Shown: one piece after another, positions 284-39,305 of the stretch
Layout: the number at the start of each line of letters is the position of its first letter
How positions within the stretch are numbered: the stretch's first letter is position 1
Sequence record: MT682707.1
Source of the DNA: Escherichia phage vB_EcoP_SP7
DNA: 39,305 bases
Reading direction: 5' to 3' (one strand)
Notes under the pieces: model-generated
Seen by the model: only the letters and a program-made list of their open reading frames with translations
What the model was told of the DNA's origin: nothing
Databases searched by the model: none
Position numbers and translations under genes: made by a program

Positions 284-289
284 CTGCGA

Positions 290-646
290 GTGATAGACGA
301 GAGGTCATCGACCGATAGGTGGCCTCAAAGATTACCACTTACATTGATAGGAGTTAACTATGAACATAGGTTACTGGGTATGCTTATCTCCGGTCATCTT
401 TCTGATAGCTTGGGGCCTTCTGGACGCAATAAAGCGAGGGTCATTCTAATGAGCTGGATACTTCTGGTTATCTTCGGCTATGGACTTATCGCCTACGTGC
501 TGATGAGAGACATCAATAAAGCGCGCAAAGTCTATAAATTCAACTATGTAAGTCTGGGGCGCTGGACTGTACGCCAACCTAATGGACGATTCACGCGTAA
601 CTTAGCGAACGTCTGGGATATAGCAACACTTGGGAGCAAACTGTAA
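290..646 (+). CDS. Early hypothetical protein with a hydrophobic segment (start uncertain; internal ATG at 449 gives a 65-aa membrane peptide)
   Basis: Track ORF starting at a GTG; internal ATG at 449 is preceded by GAGGG and encodes a transmembrane-like stretch (SWILLVIFGYGLIAYVLM). A separate 29-aa hydrophobic ORF (360..449) lies upstream in another frame. Confidence 0.35.
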   Translation: MIDERSSTDRWPQRLPLTLIGVNYEHRLLGMLISGHLSDSLGPSGRNKARVILMSWILLVIFGYGLIAYVLMRDINKARKVYKFNYVSLGRWTVRQPNGRFTRNLANVWDIATLGSKL

Positions 647-1038
647 TGAATATGTCAAATCTGGTACACGCAATGGGCTCAATCATATCGCTTCGCACAT
701 TCACTGATAAGAACGGCGTAGAGTGGAAGTACGTTGGCACGGACTCTCGAGGTCGCAACTACTGGGAGAAGACAGGGAGCAAGACCGCTTATGTACATCG
801 CCACTCGTCACACACCGCACGTCAACAGCAGGAGCGGGACAGTGTACTACAGGCACGACTCCGGGCAGAGGGCCATAAGTCTGAGCTGATGTATCTAGCG
901 TATGGTGGACGGCCAATCACCGACGATGGTAAACTTCTGGTCTCAGGCTGGAAGGCGATAGACCAACGGTCAACCATCAAGCACACTACCCATGGTGACT
1001 TCAGCCATCTACACGCTAACCCTCTGATATGCAAGTAA
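646..1038 (+). CDS. Early hypothetical protein (130 aa)
   Basis: ATG overlaps the upstream stop (TAATGA); sits where T7 has gene 0.6/0.7 but has no kinase motifs. Confidence 0.5.
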   Translation: MNMSNLVHAMGSIISLRTFTDKNGVEWKYVGTDSRGRNYWEKTGSKTAYVHRHSSHTARQQQERDSVLQARLRAEGHKSELMYLAYGGRPITDDGKLLVSGWKAIDQRSTIKHTTHGDFSHLHANPLICK

Positions 1039-1135: not shown

Positions 1136-3817
1136 ATGAGCGTCATCTCTATTGACAAACACGACTTCTCTGATGTGTCGAACGCCATTGAGCCGTTTAA
1201 CCTGCTGGCTGACCATTACGGGCAAGACCTTGCAGTTAAACAGCTTCAGCTTGAGCATGAGGCATACACTGAAGGCGAGCGACGTTTCATCAAAAACCTT
1301 GAGCGCCAGACTGAGCGCGGGGAATTGGCAGACAATCAGGTAGCCAAGCCTCTCATGCAGACTCTGGTCCCTAAGATTGCGCAAGCCGTCAAGGAGTGGC
1401 ACGAAGGCGCGGACGGGAAGCTGTCAACTTCTCGCCCTAGCGTAGCGTTCACCATGTTGAGCACTGAAGAGAAGGCCGTCAAGGACCGCTCTCTACGCAT
1501 ATCCTGTGAGTCTGCTGCGGTTATCATACTGAAGGTCATCCTCTCCAAGCTGGTCAAGCCTGAAGGGATACCGATTACACCGATGGCCTCCGCGATAGGT
1601 CGCACACTTGAGGATGAAATCCGCTTCGGTCGCATCCGTGACAAGGAGCAGGAGCACTTCAAGAAGGCGATAGCTGAGAACCTGAACAAGCGCGCCGGGG
1701 CATCCTACAAAAAAGCCTACATGCAAGCGGTTGAGACATCCATGCTGGAGCAAGGACAGCTTGAAGATGCGTGGGGGACTTGGAGTCCGACCGAGGCGGT
1801 ACACGTTGGCATCAAGATGCTTGAGATTGTCATCCAGTCTACGCAACTGGTCGAGCTTAAGCGTTATGGTGCTGGCAATGCAGCGGCTGACGTTGAGATG
1901 GTCCACCTGTCAGACTTCTGGGTCAAGAAGATGGCACAACGTGGATTCAGCCTTGCGGGTATCGCACCAGTCTATCAGCCTTGCGTAGTTCCACCTAAGC
2001 CGTGGACGGGTGTCGTAGGCGGTGGTTACTGGGCTAAAGGTCGCAGACCGTTACCATTGATTCGCTTAGGGTCTAAGTCTGCGGTAGCACGTTACGAAGA
2101 CGTGTACATGCCTGAAGTCTATGACGCTGTGAACATCATCCAGAATACACCTTGGAAAGTTAACAAGAAGGTACTGGACGTGGTGAACATGGTCGAGAAG
2201 CTGAACAACACGCCTATTGATGACATCCCTCAGATGGAACCACTGAAGCCTGAGGACTACGCGGGTGAGACCGAAGAGGACCTCAAGGCATGGAAGAAGG
2301 CTGCTGCTGGTATCTACCGCCGAGAGAAGGCCCGGCAGTCACGCAGATTGTCACTGAGCTTTATCGTTAACCAAGCGAACAAGTTCTCTCAGTTCAAGGC
2401 CATCTGGTTCCCGTACAACATGGACTGGCGCGGTCGCGTCTACGCTGTGCCGATGTTCAACCCTCAGGGTAACGACATGCAGAAGGGTCTCCTGACTCTG
2501 GCAGTCGGCAAGCCCATTGGTGCTGATGGTTTCAAATGGCTGAAGGTCCACGGTGCAAACTGTGCTGGTGTCGATAAAGTCACCTTCGAGGAGCGCATCA
2601 AGTGGGTGGAAGACAACCACGACAACATCATGGCTGCTGCTAAGGCACCGATGGATAGCATTGAGTGGTGGGGCAAGTTAGACTCTCCGTTCTGCTTCCT
2701 TGCGTTCTGCTTCGAGTATGCTGGCGTAATGCACCACGGCCTGTCTTACTCCTGCTCTCTGCCCATAGCGTTCGATGGGTCCTGCTCCGGTATTCAGCAC
2801 TTTAGTGCTATGCTTCGTGACCACATCGGCGGACATGCAGTAAACCTGACGCCTTCCGGTAAGGTCCAAGACATCTACCGCATCGTGTCTGACCGCATTG
2901 AGGAGGAGCTTAAAGTCCTGCTGGTTAATGGCACGGACAACGAGGTGGTCACTCACGAGGACAAGAAAACTGGTGAGATTACCGAACGTCTCAAGCTGGG
3001 TACACGAGAGTTGGCCCGTCAGTGGCTGACTTACGGTATGTCACGCAAGGTCACTAAGCGTTCAGTCATGACTCTGGCCTATGGGTCGAAAGAGTACGGC
3101 TTCGCAGACCAAGTTTACGAGGACATCGTAATGCCTGCGATTGACTCAGGGTCTGGCGCTATGTTCACCGAACCAAGCCAAGCGTCCCGCTTCATGGCTA
3201 AGATGATTTGGGAAGCCGTGAGTGTGACCGTGGTTGCTGCTGTTGACGCGATGAAGTGGCTTCAAGGTGCTGCCAAGCTGCTGGCTGCTGAAGTGAAGGA
3301 CAAAAAGACTGGAGAAATCCTGAAGCCTTGCCTTCCGGTACACTGGGTCACACCTGATGGTTTCCCGGTCTGGCAGGAATACCGCAAGAAGGATACCACT
3401 CGTCTGAATCTGATGTTCTTAGGGTCATTCAACCTTCAGCCTACCGTCAACAAAGGCACGAAGAAGGAGTTGGATAAGCACAAGCAGGAGTCAGGTATTA
3501 GCCCGAACTTCGTCCACTCACAAGATGGTAGCCACCTACGCAAGACTGTAGTCCACACTCACCGCAAGTATGGCGTGATGTCATTCGCAGTGATTCACGA
3601 TAGCTTCGGGACCATCCCGGCTGACGCTGAGTATCTGTTCCGTGGTGTCCGTGAGACGATGGTCGAGACCTACCGAGACAACGATGTGCTGCTTGACTTC
3701 TACGAGCAGTTTGAATACCAACTTCATGAGAGCCAACGCGACAAGCTGCCTGAGCTTCCGAAGAAAGGTAAACTGAATATCGAAGACATCTTGTCTTCAG
3801 ACTTTGCATTCGCTTAA
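1136..3817 (+). CDS. DNA-directed RNA polymerase, single-subunit T7 type (gene 1), 893 aa
   Basis: Collinear with recalled T7 RNAP along its length (e.g. FNLLADHYG, CVVPPKPWTG, FPYNMDWRGRVYAV, HGANCAGVDK, SPFCFLAFCFEYAGV, LPIAFDGSCSGIQHFSAMLRD, SFAVIHDSFGT, C-terminal SDFAFA). Confidence 0.98.
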   Translation: MSVISIDKHDFSDVSNAIEPFNLLADHYGQDLAVKQLQLEHEAYTEGERRFIKNLERQTERGELADNQVAKPLMQTLVPKIAQAVKEWHEGADGKLSTSRPSVAFTMLSTEEKAVKDRSLRISCESAAVIILKVILSKLVKPEGIPITPMASAIGRTLEDEIRFGRIRDKEQEHFKKAIAENLNKRAGASYKKAYMQAVETSMLEQGQLEDAWGTWSPTEAVHVGIKMLEIVIQSTQLVELKRYGAGNAAADVEMVHLSDFWVKKMAQRGFSLAGIAPVYQPCVVPPKPWTGVVGGGYWAKGRRPLPLIRLGSKSAVARYEDVYMPEVYDAVNIIQNTPWKVNKKVLDVVNMVEKLNNTPIDDIPQMEPLKPEDYAGETEEDLKAWKKAAAGIYRREKARQSRRLSLSFIVNQANKFSQFKAIWFPYNMDWRGRVYAVPMFNPQGNDMQKGLLTLAVGKPIGADGFKWLKVHGANCAGVDKVTFEERIKWVEDNHDNIMAAAKAPMDSIEWWGKLDSPFCFLAFCFEYAGVMHHGLSYSCSLPIAFDGSCSGIQHFSAMLRDHIGGHAVNLTPSGKVQDIYRIVSDRIEEELKVLLVNGTDNEVVTHEDKKTGEITERLKLGTRELARQWLTYGMSRKVTKRSVMTLAYGSKEYGFADQVYEDIVMPAIDSGSGAMFTEPSQASRFMAKMIWEAVSVTVVAAVDAMKWLQGAAKLLAAEVKDKKTGEILKPCLPVHWVTPDGFPVWQEYRKKDTTRLNLMFLGSFNLQPTVNKGTKKELDKHKQESGISPNFVHSQDGSHLRKTVVHTHRKYGVMSFAVIHDSFGTIPADAEYLFRGVRETMVETYRDNDVLLDFYEQFEYQLHESQRDKLPELPKKGKLNIEDILSSDFAFA

Positions 3818-4591: not shown

Positions 4592-4609
4592 ACTATCACT
4601 ATAGGATTA
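4587..4609 (+). promoter_or_regulatory. Phage-RNAP promoter (phi1.1 position)
   Basis: CTAAACTATCACTATAGGATTAG; +1 at 4604. Confidence 0.8.
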
Positions 4610-4650
4610 GACTCAAGGTCATGACTCAAAGTCGTGGCCTTCATGATTAA
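4609..4650 (+). promoter_or_regulatory. RNase III processing site (R1.1-like)
   Basis: AGACTCAAGGTCA...GTGGCCTTCATGATTAA; the same conserved element recurs at 11899 and 34856 and resembles the recalled T7 R0.5 site GACTCAAGGTCGC..GAGTGGCCTTTATGATT. Confidence 0.7.
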
Positions 4651-4679
4651 CCCTAACTCATTCAATCAGGAGCTACACC

Positions 4680-5127: not shown

Positions 5128-6233
5128 TGACTACGACTATTAAAACTAACCCGCACCGCGCTGTAGATTACTCTGAGTCCGGCGTTAAGAAAGCACTGGA
5201 AGCTGCCGGGTCACTGGAAGCTGAGGTGAAGTATGACGGTGTGCGCCTGAATCTCCCGGTCTTCCCGACAGGCGAGACCCAGTGGTTGAGCCGAGAGTCC
5301 AAGCCGCTTCCAGCCCTTGAATGGCTATCTGTCCTGACCAGCCTCGACAATATCGTGGAAGACCAGCAGCGCGCTAGCGACTGGCGGTGGTTCCTGAAGC
5401 AAGCTGGCTATGAGGGGACTGGCCTGATGGTTGATGGCGAGGTCATGGTGAAAGGGGTAGACTTCAACACATCCTCAGGTCTCATCCGAACGAAGTGGGT
5501 AAAGCAAAAGAACTTTGAGTTTTCAACTGGTGAGCACTGGGGTAAGAACTGGAAGAAAGAGAATCTACCGTTCTGTCTTGACAGGAAGCACATCAAGGTG
5601 GTCGTCTATGGTATCATCGACCTTAACGTCATCCTCGACCCGAAAGCCGAAGGTCCTATCCATAGCGTCACACGCCTGAAGGCCGAAGCTATCGTCCCTC
5701 TACTTCAGAAATACTTCCCGGAAATCGACTGGGTTCTGTCTGAGTCACACACGGTCTATGACCTTGAGTCGCTCAACTCCCTGTACGAAGAGAAGCGTCT
5801 GGAAGGACACGAGGGTCTGGTAGTCAAAGACCCACTTGGTAAATACAAGCGTGGTAAGAAGTCAGGCATGTGGAAAATGAAGCCTGAGGAGACAATTGAC
5901 GGGACCGTGTGTGGACTCGTGTGGGGGACTCAGGGTAAGGCCAACGAAGGCAAGGTCATTGGTTTTGAGGTTCTCTTGGAGGATGGCATGGTGGTTAACG
6001 CCTGTGGCCTGACTGAGGATCAGAAGGACGAGTTCACGGCAGAAGTATTTAACCGCAATGGGATTGACTCCCAGCGCGAGTACGAGGAATTGCTTTGTAT
6101 TGAGACTTTCAACCCTTACGGCGGGTGGCAGTGCGAGGTCCTCTTCATGGAGCGCTTCCCAGATGGTTCCTTACGTCACCCTAGCTTCAAGTGCTGGCGC
6201 GGGACGGAAGACAACCCTACCATTAAGAGCTAA
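5127..6233 (+). CDS. ATP-dependent DNA ligase (gene 1.3)
   Basis: IKTNP N-terminus, adenylation motif EVKYDGVR, and LMVDGEVMVKGVDFNTSSGLIRTKW match recalled T7 ligase. ATG at 5127 overlaps the gene 1.2 stop (track start 5112 is less likely). Confidence 0.95.
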   Translation: MTTTIKTNPHRAVDYSESGVKKALEAAGSLEAEVKYDGVRLNLPVFPTGETQWLSRESKPLPALEWLSVLTSLDNIVEDQQRASDWRWFLKQAGYEGTGLMVDGEVMVKGVDFNTSSGLIRTKWVKQKNFEFSTGEHWGKNWKKENLPFCLDRKHIKVVVYGIIDLNVILDPKAEGPIHSVTRLKAEAIVPLLQKYFPEIDWVLSESHTVYDLESLNSLYEEKRLEGHEGLVVKDPLGKYKRGKKSGMWKMKPEETIDGTVCGLVWGTQGKANEGKVIGFEVLLEDGMVVNACGLTEDQKDEFTAEVFNRNGIDSQREYEELLCIETFNPYGGWQCEVLFMERFPDGSLRHPSFKCWRGTEDNPTIKS

Positions 6234-6243
6234 CTAAATGTCA

Positions 6244-6276
6244 ACCCAGTGGTCTTAGGACTGCTGGGTCTTTTCA
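6244..6276 (+). terminator. Rho-independent terminator, probable early terminator TE
   Basis: CCCAGTGGTC-TTAG-GACTGCTGGG stem-loop (10 bp including G-U pairs) followed by TCTTTTC; same position after ligase as T7 TE. Confidence 0.6.
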
Positions 6277-7249: not shown

Positions 7250-7326
7250 GTGGTGCCGGGAGATGTACGAGAAGACTCTCAACCCGGACTACATTACGCT
7301 ATACAACCAATGGAAGGAGCGCGGTT

Positions 7327-7486
7327 TATGACTGAGGTTGAGAAGAAATACATCGTGGAGCTTGAGGGTCGCGTTCAGTCCTTCGAGGTTCCGGTGTACG
7401 CAAAGTCTCTTGAAGAGGCTACCATGAAGTCCCAAGAGTATGAGGACGCTGGGTTTGTGGTCGGACGGATTCGTCCTGAGACCTAA
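7327..7486 (+). CDS. gp2-like inhibitor of host RNA polymerase
   Basis: [14 protein letters not shown]...[10 protein letters not shown] matches recalled T7 gp2 (SFEVPIYAETLDEA...AGFEVTRVRP). AAGGAG sits 8 nt upstream of ATG 7327; the track's 7250 start is a GTG with no RBS. Confidence 0.75.
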
Positions 7487-10014: not shown

Positions 10015-11894
<1,880 letters not shown>

Positions 11895-11898
11895 GTCT

Positions 11899-11940
11899 AG
11901 ACTCAAGGTCATTCACAGCGAGTGGCCTTTATGATTAGAC
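11899..11940 (+). promoter_or_regulatory. RNase III processing site upstream of the DNA polymerase gene
   Basis: AGACTCAAGGTCATTCACAGCGAGTGGCCTTTATGATTAGAC; same conserved element as at 4609 and 34856. Confidence 0.7.
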
Positions 11941-11957
11941 TAAACGGAGGATTAACC

Positions 11958-34842: not shown

Positions 34843-34855
34843 ATCTCTTAAGTGT

Positions 34856-34900
34856 TAGACTCAAGGTCATTACTATATGTAGTGGCCTTTATGGTTAACA
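34856..34900 (+). promoter_or_regulatory. RNase III processing site (R18.5-like)
   Basis: TAGACTCAAGGTCATTACTATATGTAGTGGCCTTTATGGTTAACA; conserved element in the same position as T7 R18.5. Confidence 0.7.
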
Positions 34901-34952
34901 CTAACTAGTGGAGGCGACTCTACGTGAAATCTGATAAACCGGGAGGGCAACT

Positions 34953-38218: not shown

Positions 38219-38277
38219 CACTACCTACAGTCTAACTACCTACAGTCTAACTACCTACAGTCTAACTACCTACAGTC
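38219..38277. repeat. 15-bp tandem repeat array (CTACCTACAGTCTAA, about 3.7 copies), with further CCTACAG copies to about 38330
   Basis: Directly visible; analogous to the short repeat arrays flanking the T7 terminal repeat. Confidence 0.85.
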
Positions 38278-38436
38278 ATCGACCATCGGTAATGCCGCTA
38301 CCTACAGTCAGAGACCTACAGTTAATAGACACAAAGGATATAGACTTAATGTCTAAGACATGTTAGTCAAAGATTATATCCTCTTACACCATGGGGGGCC
38401 GATGCTAGCTCAATCAATATTATTTCAAATTACCTA

Positions 38437-38465
38437 TTGACTATAGGTATCGACTATGGCTTAAT
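38437..38465 (+). promoter_or_regulatory. Candidate sigma70 early promoter (A1-like)
   Basis: TTGACT, 17-nt spacer, CTTAAT; the spacer contains CTATAGG as the T7 A1 spacer does. Confidence 0.45.
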
Positions 38466-38577
38466 AGCTTCCGTCAACACGACACGGCAACAACCGGATA
38501 GTGAAGACGCCTGGTCATCCCGGTCAAGTAGACAGCCTGATAAGTCATACGAAAAACAGGCAGATGACAGAAAGCAG

Positions 38578-38606
38578 TTGACAAGAAGTAAGACTTAAAG
38601 TAGTAT
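38578..38606 (+). promoter_or_regulatory. Candidate sigma70 early promoter (A2-like)
   Basis: TTGACA, 17-nt spacer (AGAAGTAAGACTTAAAG), TAGTAT; the upstream GTAGACAGCCTGATAAGTC..CGAAAAACAGG closely matches the recalled T7 early promoter region. Confidence 0.6.
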
Positions 38607-38731
38607 GAGTCACCAAGCAGTACAGCGAGCCGGAACTGATAACTACATCGGCTATGCGGAGTGACCAGCGCGAATATCTGGTCTAATGAGTAAGGCGGTA
38701 GGTTACTACAGCAAGCGAGTTAAGAAAGTGA

Positions 38732-38760
38732 TTGACAAGCTGGTTTGACTGTAGTAACTT
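38732..38760 (+). promoter_or_regulatory. Candidate sigma70 early promoter (A3-like), weak -10
   Basis: TTGACA, 17-nt spacer, TAACTT. Confidence 0.35.
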
Positions 38761-38830
38761 ATACGACAAGCAAGATTAGTGAGTCCCAACACTGAAACGG
38801 GATAGCACGGCGACGACAGCCAATGCGAAT

Positions 38831-38843
38831 GCTCTTTAACAAT
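38831..38843 (+). promoter_or_regulatory. boxA-like element in the early leader
   Basis: GCTCTTTAACAAT matches the E. coli rrn boxA core and the equivalent T7 leader sequence (recalled). Confidence 0.6.
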
Positions 38844-38882
38844 CTGGACAAACTCTTAATGTGCGCCGATAGCGACTAACTA

Positions 38883-38914
38883 CAGGGTCTTTGAGTCTAC
38901 ATCTAAAGGCCCTG
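38883..38914 (+). promoter_or_regulatory. Stem-loop upstream of gene 0.3 (R0.3-like candidate RNase III site)
   Basis: CAGGGTCTTT...AAAGGCCCTG inverted repeat about 45 nt upstream of the ocr start. Confidence 0.45.
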
Positions 38915-38960
38915 ACTGATAGTCACTAACATACACAAACAACTTTGAGAGGATATAGCT

Positions 38961-39302
38961 ATGGAACGTAACGCTAACGCATACTATGAGCTGCTGGCTG
39001 CAACTGTTGAAGCATTTAACGAGAGCATTCAGCATGACGAAATAGCTGAAGGTGACGACTACAGCGATGCGCTGCACGAAGTCGTAGAAGGTATGGTTCC
39101 GCATTATTACCACGAGATTTTCACGGTGATGGCTGCTGATGGTATTGACCACGAGTTCGAAGACTCTGGGCTGATGCCTGAGACCAAGGACGTAACGCGT
39201 ATACTACAAGCCCGAATCTATGAGGCGCTTTATAACGACGTGTCTAATAGCTCGGATGTGGTCTGGTTTGAGGATGAAGAGAACGACGAAGAGGACTGCT
39301 AG
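38961..39302 (+). CDS. ocr: Ocr-like DNA mimic, anti-restriction protein (gene 0.3)
   Basis: [43 protein letters not shown] closely matches recalled T7 Ocr; acidic C-terminus; first early gene downstream of the host-type promoters. Confidence 0.9.
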
Positions 39303-39305
39303 TGA

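What the first reader, a model, noticed from the sequence alone, without database searches (positions are those of the whole stretch)
38831..38914. boxA-like element and hairpin in the early leader upstream of ocr
GCTCTTTAACAAT is identical to the rrn boxA core and to the corresponding T7 leader sequence as I recall it; it is followed by a CAGGGTCTTT/AAAGGCCCTG stem-loop. This implies conserved Nus-dependent antitermination or processing of the host-RNAP early transcript.
Basis: partly seen in the sequence, partly recalled or inferred. Interest (0 to 1): 0.35.

Follow-up and report, generated by a model that had tools for sequence, protein, structure and literature searches.

The report
T7-type boxA and RNase III site
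This is the ordinary early-leader control region of a T7-like phage: a copy of the host's ribosomal-RNA "boxA" signal, which in T7 makes the host RNA polymerase resist termination, followed by the RNA hairpin where host RNase III is expected to cut the leader off the first phage message. Both elements are already known from T7 and T3.

Summary
TGCTCTTTAACAAT (38830-38843, + strand) is unique in the window and identical over 14 nt to the E. coli rrn leader boxA and over 13 nt to T7 815-827. CAGGGTCTTT/AAAGGCCCTG forms a 10-bp stem with one G·U pair.

The window is a complete, circularly permuted Kayfunavirus genome, about 93% identical to EcoDS1 in this region. boxA lies downstream of three host promoters and upstream of ocr.

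Among 80 relatives anchored on the RNA polymerase gene (58-99% protein identity), the boxA 12-mer is exact in 61. It is always on the sense strand upstream of the polymerase gene, inside otherwise diverged sequence. gh-1 and SP6 also carry it. T7's boxA is cited in the literature as a functional anti-termination element.

The stem is the upper half of a larger hairpin (38868-38930) with the architecture of T7/T3 RNase III sites. It sits at the R0.3 position, is found by a model built only from annotated T3 sites, and shows compensatory changes across lineages. It is not a lambda-type boxB.

Verdict: already known, low interest. One side observation deserves mention: a second, strongly covarying hairpin with an invariant ACACUGAAA loop lies a fixed ~42 nt upstream of boxA. 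I found no description of it in the searches I ran.

The parts
38437..38473 (+). Host sigma-70 early promoter 1 (A1-like)
   Evidence: Aligns with the 'host RNAP promoter' annotated at EcoDS1 469-505. TTGACT is at 38437.
38578..38615 (+). Host sigma-70 early promoter 2 (A2-like)
   Evidence: TTGACA-17-TAGTAT, 10 of 12 consensus positions. Aligns with the EcoDS1 promoter annotated at 609-647.
38732..38768 (+). Host sigma-70 early promoter 3 (A3-like), the last promoter before boxA
   Evidence: Aligns with the EcoDS1 promoter annotated at 764-800.
38783..38803 (+). Upstream hairpin GUCCC/GGGAU with the loop AACACUGAAAC. The loop motif starts 42 nt before boxA. Function unknown; a boxB-like position is possible.
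   Evidence: The loop ACACTGAAA is unique in the window and in T7. Across 17 distinct sequences, 5 of 6 stem pairs show changes on both sides. The covariation score is 0.681 against 0.167 in shuffles (0 of 500 reach it) and at most 0.142 for slid controls. Spacing to boxA is 40-44 nt in all 28 segments that carry it.
38830..38848 (+). boxA (TGCTCTTTAACAAT, 38830-38843) plus a conserved 3' extension CTGGA
   Evidence: Searches show it is unique. Searches show identity to the E. coli rrn leader. One search shows the T7 match. Searches show it is an island of at least 90% conservation in 67-70 diverged leaders. One search shows no + strand ORF of at least 20 aa over it.
38868..38930 (+). R0.3-type RNase III processing hairpin. 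Cleavage is predicted after U38917 (GACU|GAUAG), by register with T7 R1.1 and R0.3.
   Evidence: Fold of -23.2 kcal/mol, z = -4.57. A model built from 7 annotated T3 RNase III sites hits it at 23.6 bits, E = 0.011, and the same search recovers 8 T7 sites with no other T7 hit. 7 of 14 core pairs have compensatory changes and 92.9% of cells are paired. The position matches the annotated R0.3 of T3 and phiYeO3-12.
38961..39302 (+). Gene 0.3 (ocr, DNA-mimic anti-restriction protein), the first early gene
   Evidence: Pfam PF08684 (ocr), E = 1.3e-30.
6244..6276 (+). TE-like intrinsic terminator just after the DNA ligase gene. It is the likely end of the host-polymerase early unit and the likely target of boxA-dependent read-through.
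   Evidence: An 11-bp stem followed by UCUUUUC, -18.6 kcal/mol, z = -2.89. TE is annotated at the same position, directly after the ligase gene, in T3 and T7. The simple terminator scan missed it.
7250..7486 (+). gp2-like inhibitor of host RNA polymerase, the genetic partner of boxA in T7
   Evidence: Pfam PF16857 (RNA_pol_inhib), E = 8.1e-20.
1136..3817 (+). Phage single-subunit RNA polymerase gene, an early gene and the anchor used to collect relatives
   Evidence: 893-aa ORF. 58-99% protein identity to 80 IMG/VR loci.

Best explanation
The finding covers two adjacent, separate, already-known elements of the T7-group early leader RNA.

1. **boxA (38830-38843).** It is transcribed by host RNA polymerase from three sigma-70 promoters. 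By orthology with T7 and sequence identity to the rrn leader, the nascent RNA is bound by NusB-NusE(S10). Together with NusG, NusA and SuhB, this converts the polymerase into a pause- and termination-resistant complex. That complex would protect the roughly 190-520 nt untranslated leader and the early operon (ocr through polymerase to ligase) from Rho, speed elongation, and allow some read-through of the TE-like terminator at 6244-6276. The gp2-like inhibitor (7250-7486) later shuts these promoters off.
2. **Hairpin (38868-38930).** This is the R0.3 RNase III site. RNase III would make a single cut on the 3' side of the internal loop, predicted after U38917. The cut releases the boxA-containing leader, which ends in the hairpin, and leaves an ocr mRNA with a 43-nt 5' leader.

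Shown here: sequence identity, position, orientation, family-wide conservation, hairpin architecture and covariation, and the presence of the promoter, TE and gp2 context. Inferred: Nus binding, antitermination, and the cleavage position.
For: **boxA**
- Unique 14-mer, 0 of 100 shuffles.
- Identical to the rrn leader of all 5426 E. coli genomes searched.
- Fits GYTCTTTAANA (PMC5725501).
- In 80 polymerase-anchored relatives the exact 12-mer occurs 62 times on the sense strand and 0 times on the antisense strand in about 1 Mb, against roughly 0.06 expected per strand. Every occurrence lies upstream of the polymerase gene.
- Flanking columns are only 30-50% conserved.
- It is also present between promoter A3 and the RNase III site in Pseudomonas phage gh-1, and three times in SP6.
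- For T7, boxA mutations downstream of the early promoters make Gp2 dispensable, and host polymerase transcription is described as boxA anti-terminated (PMC3709561; PMC3778932).

**Hairpin**. The R1.1 cleavage register (nt 5887) is confirmed in PMC8708148.

**Context**: promoters; ocr, ligase and gp2; TE-like hairpin.

Against: - There are no experimental data for this phage or for any Kayfunavirus.
- The primary T7 paper (Savalia 2010) could not be opened, so the genetics is cited second-hand.
- Predicted accessibility of boxA is not distinctive: mean unpaired probability is 0.52, against 0.49 and 0.38 in the flanks.
- The CM score of the hairpin is modest (23.6 bits, E = 0.011), although it is similar to the genuine T7 sites R1.3 and R6.5.
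- Two relatives, L031 and L040, lack boxA and are presumably viable, so the element is not essential. Both retain gp2.
Confidence: 0.85

Rival explanations
1. boxA does recruit Nus factors, but its main role is RNA chaperoning and processing rather than antitermination. By tethering the leader to the polymerase, it would promote correct folding and co-transcriptional RNase III cleavage of the hairpin that starts 26 nt downstream, as has been argued for rRNA.
For: - boxA is followed by the RNase III hairpin at a similar distance in essentially every lineage that has it, including gh-1.
Against: - The T7 genetics is described in terms of anti-terminated transcription running into late regions.
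- L031 keeps the R0.3 hairpin after losing boxA.
- The other RNase III-type hairpins in the window (287-342, 4600-4657, 11890-11944, 34848-34905) have no boxA of their own; the only exact boxA in the window is at 38831.
- This role is not exclusive of the main explanation.
Confidence: 0.1
2. boxA plus the downstream stem-loop form a lambda-type nut site (boxA-boxB) that needs a phage-encoded N-like antiterminator.
For: The order of boxA followed by a hairpin superficially resembles lambda nut. Lambdoid prophages carry the same GCTCTTTAACAATCTGG next to their repressor genes.
Against: - The hairpin starts 26 nt after boxA.
- It is about 60 nt long with an internal loop.
- It belongs to the same family as the intercistronic RNase III sites elsewhere in the genome.
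- Its apical loop varies freely in sequence and length between lineages.
- Its lower stem and internal-loop flanks (UAAC ... GAUANYCACU) are what is conserved.
- No search for an N-like gene was run.
Confidence: 0.02
3. The boxA match acts at the DNA level or is functionless. It could be a conserved protein-binding or recombination site, or simply a hitch-hiking block.
For: In many Kayfunavirus genomes, BLAST homology to the window begins at 38827 and ends near 38933, so boxA plus hairpin behave as a mosaic block. Orientation alone cannot separate DNA-level from RNA-level function.
Against: - The 14 of 14 identity is to a host RNA signal.
- The motif is retained across polymerase divergence down to 58% and across hosts, while neighbouring bases randomise.
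- The substitutions seen are mostly at the Y position of the published consensus (GTTCTTTAACAA in L011, L033 and L038).
- There is genetic evidence of function in T7.
Confidence: 0.03

Closest known systems
Bacteriophage T7 early-leader boxA (T7 nt 815-827, between promoter A3 and R0.3)
   Same: The 13-nt core plus CTGG is identical. The position is the same: after the last host promoter and before the R0.3 hairpin and gene 0.3. The genomic circuit is the same: TE after the ligase gene, and gp2.
   Different: The flanking leader sequence has diverged, and the base before the core is T here (as in rrn) but C in T7. Nothing has been tested in this phage. The T7 records searched do not annotate the element.
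E. coli rrn operon leader boxB-boxA-boxC (rrn antitermination complex signal)
   Same: TGCTCTTTAACAAT is identical over 14 nt. In both cases boxA is followed by an RNase III-processed helix. A hairpin also lies upstream of boxA in the phage, as boxB does in rrn.
   Different: The phage upstream hairpin ends 27 nt before boxA rather than about 2 nt, and it has a different loop. The 3' flank is CTGGA rather than TTATC. A boxC-like GU-rich element is only weakly suggested. The RNase III substrate is a local hairpin, not a long-range leader-trailer helix.
T7/T3 RNase III processing sites (R0.3; model substrate R1.1)
   Same: The architecture is the same: a two-part stem with an asymmetric internal loop. 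The conserved flanks UAAC ... GAUANYCACU and the intercistronic position are shared, and a single-strand cut on the 3' side of the loop is expected.
   Different: The upper-stem sequence is CAGGGUCUUU/AAAGGCCCUG, against AAGGGUAUC/GGUGCCCUU in T7 and AAGGUCGC/GUGGCCUU in T3. This lowers the CM score to 23.6 bits.
Lambda and lambdoid nut sites (boxA-boxB with N protein)
   Same: A boxA RNA signal on a phage early transcript recruits host Nus factors.
   Different: There is no boxB next to boxA, and no N-like protein is known in T7-like phages. Lambda's boxA is the weaker CGCUCUUA (my own knowledge), whereas this one is the full rrn form.
suhB-type 5'-UTR boxA (Nus-mediated translational repression)
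   Same: It matches the GYTCTTTAANA consensus in an mRNA leader.
   Different: [quoted passage not shown] Here boxA lies about 103 nt upstream of it, with an RNase III site in between, so occlusion of the ribosome-binding site is unlikely.

Membership tests
boxA (NusB-NusE binding RNA element) | Sequence matches the functional gamma-proteobacterial consensus GYTCTTTAANA or the rrn core GCUCUUUAACAA | tested here: met
   GCTCTTTAACA at 38831-38841 is the only match in the window. 14 of 14 nt are identical to the E. coli rrn leader. The consensus is taken from PMC5725501.
boxA (NusB-NusE binding RNA element) | Lies in sense orientation in an RNA made by host RNA polymerase, in a non-coding leader | tested here: met
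   It is downstream of three promoters homologous to the annotated host promoters of EcoDS1. No + strand ORF of at least 20 aa covers it. Transcription itself is inferred.
boxA (NusB-NusE binding RNA element) | Conserved among relatives against a diverging background | tested here: met
   61 of 80 polymerase-anchored loci have it exact, 5 have one mismatch, and 5 have a two-mismatch variant at the same place. There are no antisense copies. It is also present in gh-1 and SP6.
boxA (NusB-NusE binding RNA element) | Binds NusB-NusE and confers antitermination or Rho resistance | not testable with these tools
   Only second-hand genetic evidence exists, and only for the T7 ortholog.
T7-group RNase III processing site | Hairpin of about 20 bp in two stems separated by an asymmetric internal loop, significantly stable | tested here: met
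   -23.2 kcal/mol, z = -4.57. The dot-bracket pattern is the same as for T7 R0.3 and T3 R0.3.
T7-group RNase III processing site | Recognised by a profile of independently annotated sites | tested here: met
   A covariance model built from 7 annotated T3 sites hits 38868-38930 at 23.6 bits, E = 0.011. The same search finds T7 R0.3, R0.5, R1, R1.1, R1.3, R4.7, R6.5 and R18.5 and nothing else in T7. The score is weak but within the range of genuine sites.
T7-group RNase III processing site | Structure maintained by compensatory change | tested here: met
   In 15 lineage representatives, 92.9% of cells are paired and 7 of 14 pairs have changes on both sides. The score is 0.316 against 0.105 in shuffles (0 of 500 reach it) and at most 0.076 for slid controls. 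Only the 5 basal pairs of the upper stem could be aligned in register.
T7-group RNase III processing site | Cleaved by RNase III in vivo or in vitro | not testable with these tools
   The cleavage position after U38917 is inferred from the register of T7 R1.1 (nt 5887) and R0.3.
Lambda-type nut site | boxB hairpin with a short conserved purine-rich loop a few nt downstream of boxA | tested here: not met
   The hairpin starts 26 nt downstream. Its apical loop varies in sequence and length, with insertions of up to about 45 nt, between lineages.
rrn-type boxB-boxA-boxC signal | Hairpin just upstream of boxA and a GU-rich boxC downstream | tested here: inconclusive
   A covarying hairpin exists upstream, but it ends 27 nt before boxA and is absent from the Przondovirus-like group, which still has boxA. 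Downstream, UGUGCGCC, GAGUGCAUG and GGUGUGGACC resemble boxC only loosely.

The most novel reading that the evidence does not exclude
The early leader as a whole may be an extended mimic of the rrn leader whose parts beyond the boxA core are undescribed. Those parts are the covarying hairpin with the invariant ACACUGAAA loop held 40-44 nt upstream of boxA, and the conserved 3' extension N-UGG-A-(U/A) that the host rrn boxA lacks.

Together they could form a phage-specific, higher-affinity or faster-assembling signal for the host antitermination complex, or a factor-independent put-like element. Such a signal might be tuned to accelerate polymerase-driven genome entry and ocr expression. None of this is excluded by my evidence, and none of it is shown.
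Probability: 0.15. Interest if true: 0.5.

Novelty: already known. Interest (0 to 1): 0.15.

Why it matters
For this window it matters mainly as annotation. It fixes the start of the early transcription unit, explains the long non-coding stretch before ocr, and shows that the classical T7 circuit is intact in a Kayfunavirus: host promoters, boxA, R0.3, early genes, TE and gp2. None of the deposited records examined here annotates boxA.

More generally, boxA is nearly universal in T7-like early leaders across hosts from E. coli to Pseudomonas putida, and it is always followed by an RNase III hairpin. This supports the view that these phages borrow the host's ribosomal-RNA transcription machinery. 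That view is consistent with existing knowledge rather than a change to it.

Tried and rejected
- **Rfam.** A permissive scan of 38300-39305 found only chance-level hits (E of 4 or more), so no curated family covers either element.
- **T7 records.** NC_001604 and V01146 list neither boxA nor the RNase III sites. I used the T3 and phiYeO3-12 annotations instead.
- **Primary literature.** Pajunen 2001, Scholl 2005 and Savalia 2010 are not held. The T7 boxA genetics is therefore cited through two papers from the same groups. Searches for boxA with 'Autographiviridae' or 'gene 0.3' found nothing.
- **Accessibility.** boxA is not clearly more unpaired than its flanks in partition-function folds of 67 leaders. 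The result is uninformative.
- **Co-loss of gp2.** The natural boxA-less relatives L031 and L040 both keep gp2, so there is no evolutionary echo of the T7 suppressor genetics.
- **Column-based covariation of the whole upper stem.** MAFFT puts lineages out of register beyond the basal 5 bp and around apical insertions. The formal count was therefore restricted to 14 core pairs.
- **Simple terminator scan.** It missed the TE-like hairpin because the U-tract is interrupted. The hairpin was found by position and folding.
- **Rejected readings.** Chance match, coding sequence, and lambda-type boxB.
- **Viral-collection scan.** It cannot be used to judge enrichment of the TGG extension.

Full report
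**What the window is.** The last 900 bases match Kayfunavirus genomes; EcoDS1 is 93% identical over 96% of the query. The window also carries a T7-type RNA polymerase gene (1136-3817). Further genes are ocr (38961-39302, Pfam PF08684, E = 1.3e-30), DNA ligase, and a gp2-like inhibitor of host RNA polymerase (7250-7486, PF16857, E = 8.1e-20). The two ends of the window are contiguous in EcoDS1, and gene 0.35 runs across the junction. The window is therefore a circularly permuted complete genome. The region of the finding is the start of the early, host-transcribed operon, which continues at coordinate 1.

**Checking the observation.** GCTCTTTAACAAT is at 38831-38843 on the + strand.
- With the preceding T, the 14-mer is unique and occurs in none of 100 shuffles.
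- The published functional consensus GYTCTTTAANA (PMC5725501) matches only here.
- T7 has CGCTCTTTAACAATCTGG at 813-830.
- A 51-nt rrn leader sequence containing TGCTCTTTAACAAT is found at 100% identity in all 5426 complete E. coli genomes. It occurs at a median of seven places per genome, and in the example inspected it lies about 95 nt before a 16S rRNA gene.
- The stem CAGGGTCTTT (38883-38892) / AAAGGCCCTG (38905-38914) is 10 bp with one G·U.
- It is the upper part of a longer hairpin, 38868-38930, with lower stem GCGACUA/UAGUCAC and an asymmetric internal loop. That hairpin folds at -23.2 kcal/mol, z = -4.57.

**Context.** Three host-type promoters lie upstream, at 38437-38473, 38578-38615 and 38732-38768. 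They were placed by alignment to the promoters annotated in EcoDS1, and the second also scores 10 of 12 in the consensus scan. All early transcripts therefore contain boxA. No + strand ORF of at least 20 aa covers the region. Directly after the ligase gene, where T3 and T7 have their early terminator TE, the window has an 11-bp hairpin followed by UCUUUUC (6244-6276).

**Is boxA conserved beyond what shared ancestry gives?** I collected 80 loci from IMG/VR using only the RNA polymerase protein as anchor, at 58-99% identity.
- The 12-mer GCTCTTTAACAA occurs exactly 62 times on the sense strand and never on the antisense strand in about 1 Mb, where about 0.06 per strand is expected. Every copy lies 0.1-3.4 kb upstream of the polymerase gene.
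- 61 loci have it exact, and five have one mismatch, three of them at the Y position of the consensus.
- Five Przondovirus-like loci carry GTTCATTAACAAT at the same place.
- Most of the rest are truncated contigs.
- Two loci with about 3 kb of upstream sequence, L031 and L040, truly lack it. In L031 a deletion of about 100 nt appears to have removed boxA while keeping the downstream hairpin.
- In register-anchored and gapped alignments, boxA plus a short 3' extension (GCTCTTTAACAAT-N-TGG-A-T/A) is an island of at least 90% identity in flanks that are 30-50% conserved.
- Outside this sample, T3, phiYeO3-12 and K1F have it, and Pseudomonas phage gh-1 has it at 728, between its annotated A3 promoter and an annotated RNase III site. 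SP6 has three copies, each ahead of an early gene. phiKMV has none in its first 6 kb.

[quoted passage not shown] 2010). The antiterminated host polymerase is reported to run into regions normally read by T7 polymerase (PMC3778932). The primary paper is not held. [quoted passage not shown]

**What the hairpin is.** In T3 and phiYeO3-12 the hairpin at the equivalent place, between boxA and gene 0.3, is annotated as RNase III site R0.3.
- The window hairpin has the same dot-bracket pattern as T7 R0.3, T3 R0.3 and the other annotated T3 sites.
- I built a covariance model from seven annotated T3 sites only. In T7 it finds hits containing the known cleavage positions of R0.3, R0.5, R1, R1.1, R1.3, R4.7, R6.5 and R18.5, and nothing else. 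The R1.1 position at nt 5887 is confirmed in PMC8708148; the other positions are from my memory of Dunn and Studier 1983.
- In the window the model finds five + strand hits: 287-342, 4600-4657, 11890-11944, 34848-34905 and 38868-38930. The last scores 23.6 bits, E = 0.011, similar to genuine T7 R1.3 and R6.5.
- Across lineages the lower stem and loop flanks are conserved (UAAC ... GAUANYCACU). The upper stems are entirely different sequences, and some carry long apical insertions.
- On 15 representatives, 92.9% of cells pair and 7 of 14 core pairs have changes on both sides. The covariation score is 0.316, against 0.105 for shuffles (0 of 500 reach it) and at most 0.076 for slid controls.

The hairpin is therefore the R0.3 processing site, not a lambda-type boxB. 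By register with T7 (UUUAU|GAU), cleavage is predicted after U38917. That would leave a 43-nt leader on the ocr mRNA.

**Mechanism.**
- Shown: identity, position, orientation, conservation, structure and genomic circuit.
- Inferred: nascent boxA binds NusB-NusE and assembles the host antitermination complex on polymerases that started at the three promoters. This would protect the long untranslated leader and the early operon from Rho, speed elongation, and allow some read-through of the TE-like terminator. RNase III would then cut the leader off at R0.3.
- The same complex may also help the RNase III step. I list this as a non-exclusive rival.

**Negative or uninformative tests.**
- Rfam has no family for either element.
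- Predicted accessibility of boxA is not distinctive.
- The two boxA-less relatives keep gp2.

**Side observation.** A hairpin at 38783-38803 (GUCCC-AACACUGAAAC-GGGAU) has an invariant loop core and a covarying stem in T7-, T3- and K1F-like lineages.
- 5 of 6 pairs have double changes. The score is 0.681 against 0.167 for shuffles, with 0 of 500 reaching it.
- Its distance to boxA is fixed at 40-44 nt.
- The loop motif is unique in both the window and T7.
- It is absent from the Przondovirus-like group, which still has boxA. It is therefore not required for boxA to be present.
- I found no description of it in the searches I ran, and its role is open.

**Verdict.** The finding is real and correctly read, and it is already known biology: the T7-group early-leader boxA followed by the R0.3 RNase III site, here in a Kayfunavirus. 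Interest is low.

Noticed in passing
window 38783-38803 (T7 765-785): A second conserved hairpin lies upstream of boxA. Its loop (A)ACACUGAAA is invariant and its stem covaries: UCCC/GGGA, UCACC/GGUGA, GCGG/CCGC, GACC/GGUC, GCCU/AGGC, GCGC/GCGC, GGCU/AGCC and GUCAC/GUGAC. The loop motif starts 40-44 nt before boxA and about 20 nt after the last host promoter's start. The preceding CAGUG is complementary to CACUG in the loop, which allows an alternative pairing. The hairpin is absent from Przondovirus-like relatives.
   Followed up: partly
window 38844-38850; all boxA-bearing loci: The phage boxA has a conserved 3' extension that the host rrn boxA lacks: GCTCTTTAACAAT-N-TGG-A-(T/A)-N-A in phages, against AATTTATCAG in rrn. 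The window has CTGGACA where most relatives have CTGGATA.
   Followed up: partly
window ~38860-38867 (AATGTGCGCC); T7 GAGTGCATG; L023 GGTGTGGACC: A weakly conserved GU-rich element lies about 25-30 nt downstream of boxA and is loosely reminiscent of rrn boxC (UGUGUGGGC). It may be chance.
   Followed up: no
L031:760-860; L040: Two relatives lack boxA. In L031 (T3-like, SAMase as gene 0.3) the loop motif of the upstream hairpin is fused almost directly to the R0.3 hairpin, which looks like a deletion of about 100 nt that removed boxA. Both loci retain gp2.
   Followed up: yes
L005:4281 and 4536; L050:668 and 931; SP6 (L211) 656, 926, 1536: Some genomes carry two or three boxA copies, each ahead of a small early ORF. 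In L005 and L050 the first copy is followed by GATAGGCTTACT, a ribosome-binding site and an inserted gene. This suggests gene cassettes inserted by recombination at the boxA and hairpin modules.
   Followed up: partly
L047:626, L054:861, L060:4013, L074:3531, L079:3493: Five Przondovirus-like loci carry a variant boxA, GTTCATTAACAATATGGATT, with two changes from the core, one of them outside the published consensus. The variant sits at the orthologous place with the 3' extension intact.
   Followed up: no
L084 (K1F) ~1028-1090 versus 710-765: K1F has two R0.3-type hairpins flanking an extra ORF inserted between boxA and gene 0.3. In many Kayfunavirus genomes, BLAST homology to the window starts at 38827 and ends near 38933, so boxA plus hairpin travel as one mosaic block.
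   Followed up: partly
L210:3501-3585 (E. coli prophage); many of L090-L169: The same GCTCTTTAACAATCTGG occurs in many non-T7 prophage contigs. In the one group followed up it is preceded by an AAAAAAGCGCC...GGACGCTT hairpin; a match to this sequence is found in 789 of 5426 E. coli genomes, just downstream of an XRE/cI-like repressor gene in a lambdoid immunity region, presumably a nutL-type site.
   Followed up: partly
window 287-342, 4600-4657, 11890-11944, 34848-34905 (+): Four further hairpins match the T3-derived RNase III site model at 26-48 bits. From gene order they would correspond to the R0.5-, R1.1-, R4.7- and R18.5-type sites.
   Followed up: partly
window 6244-6276 (+): A TE-like intrinsic terminator (11-bp stem plus UCUUUUC) lies directly after the ligase gene. 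The simple terminator scan missed it.
   Followed up: partly
window 38220-38277: A perfect tandem array of a 15-nt unit, ACTACCTACAGTCTA, is present in 3.9 copies. It lies between the presumed genome left end (about 37970 by alignment offset to EcoDS1) and the early promoters. T7-group genomes have repeat arrays near their ends.
   Followed up: no
window 39302-39305 joined to 1-155: Gene 0.35 runs across the window junction. The window is therefore a circularly permuted complete genome, with the terminal repeat collapsed to one copy.
   Followed up: yes
window 290-1038: Only about 1.1 kb separates ocr from the polymerase gene. The two ORFs there (118 and 130 aa) have no Pfam match, so a gp0.7-type protein kinase appears to be absent.
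   Followed up: no
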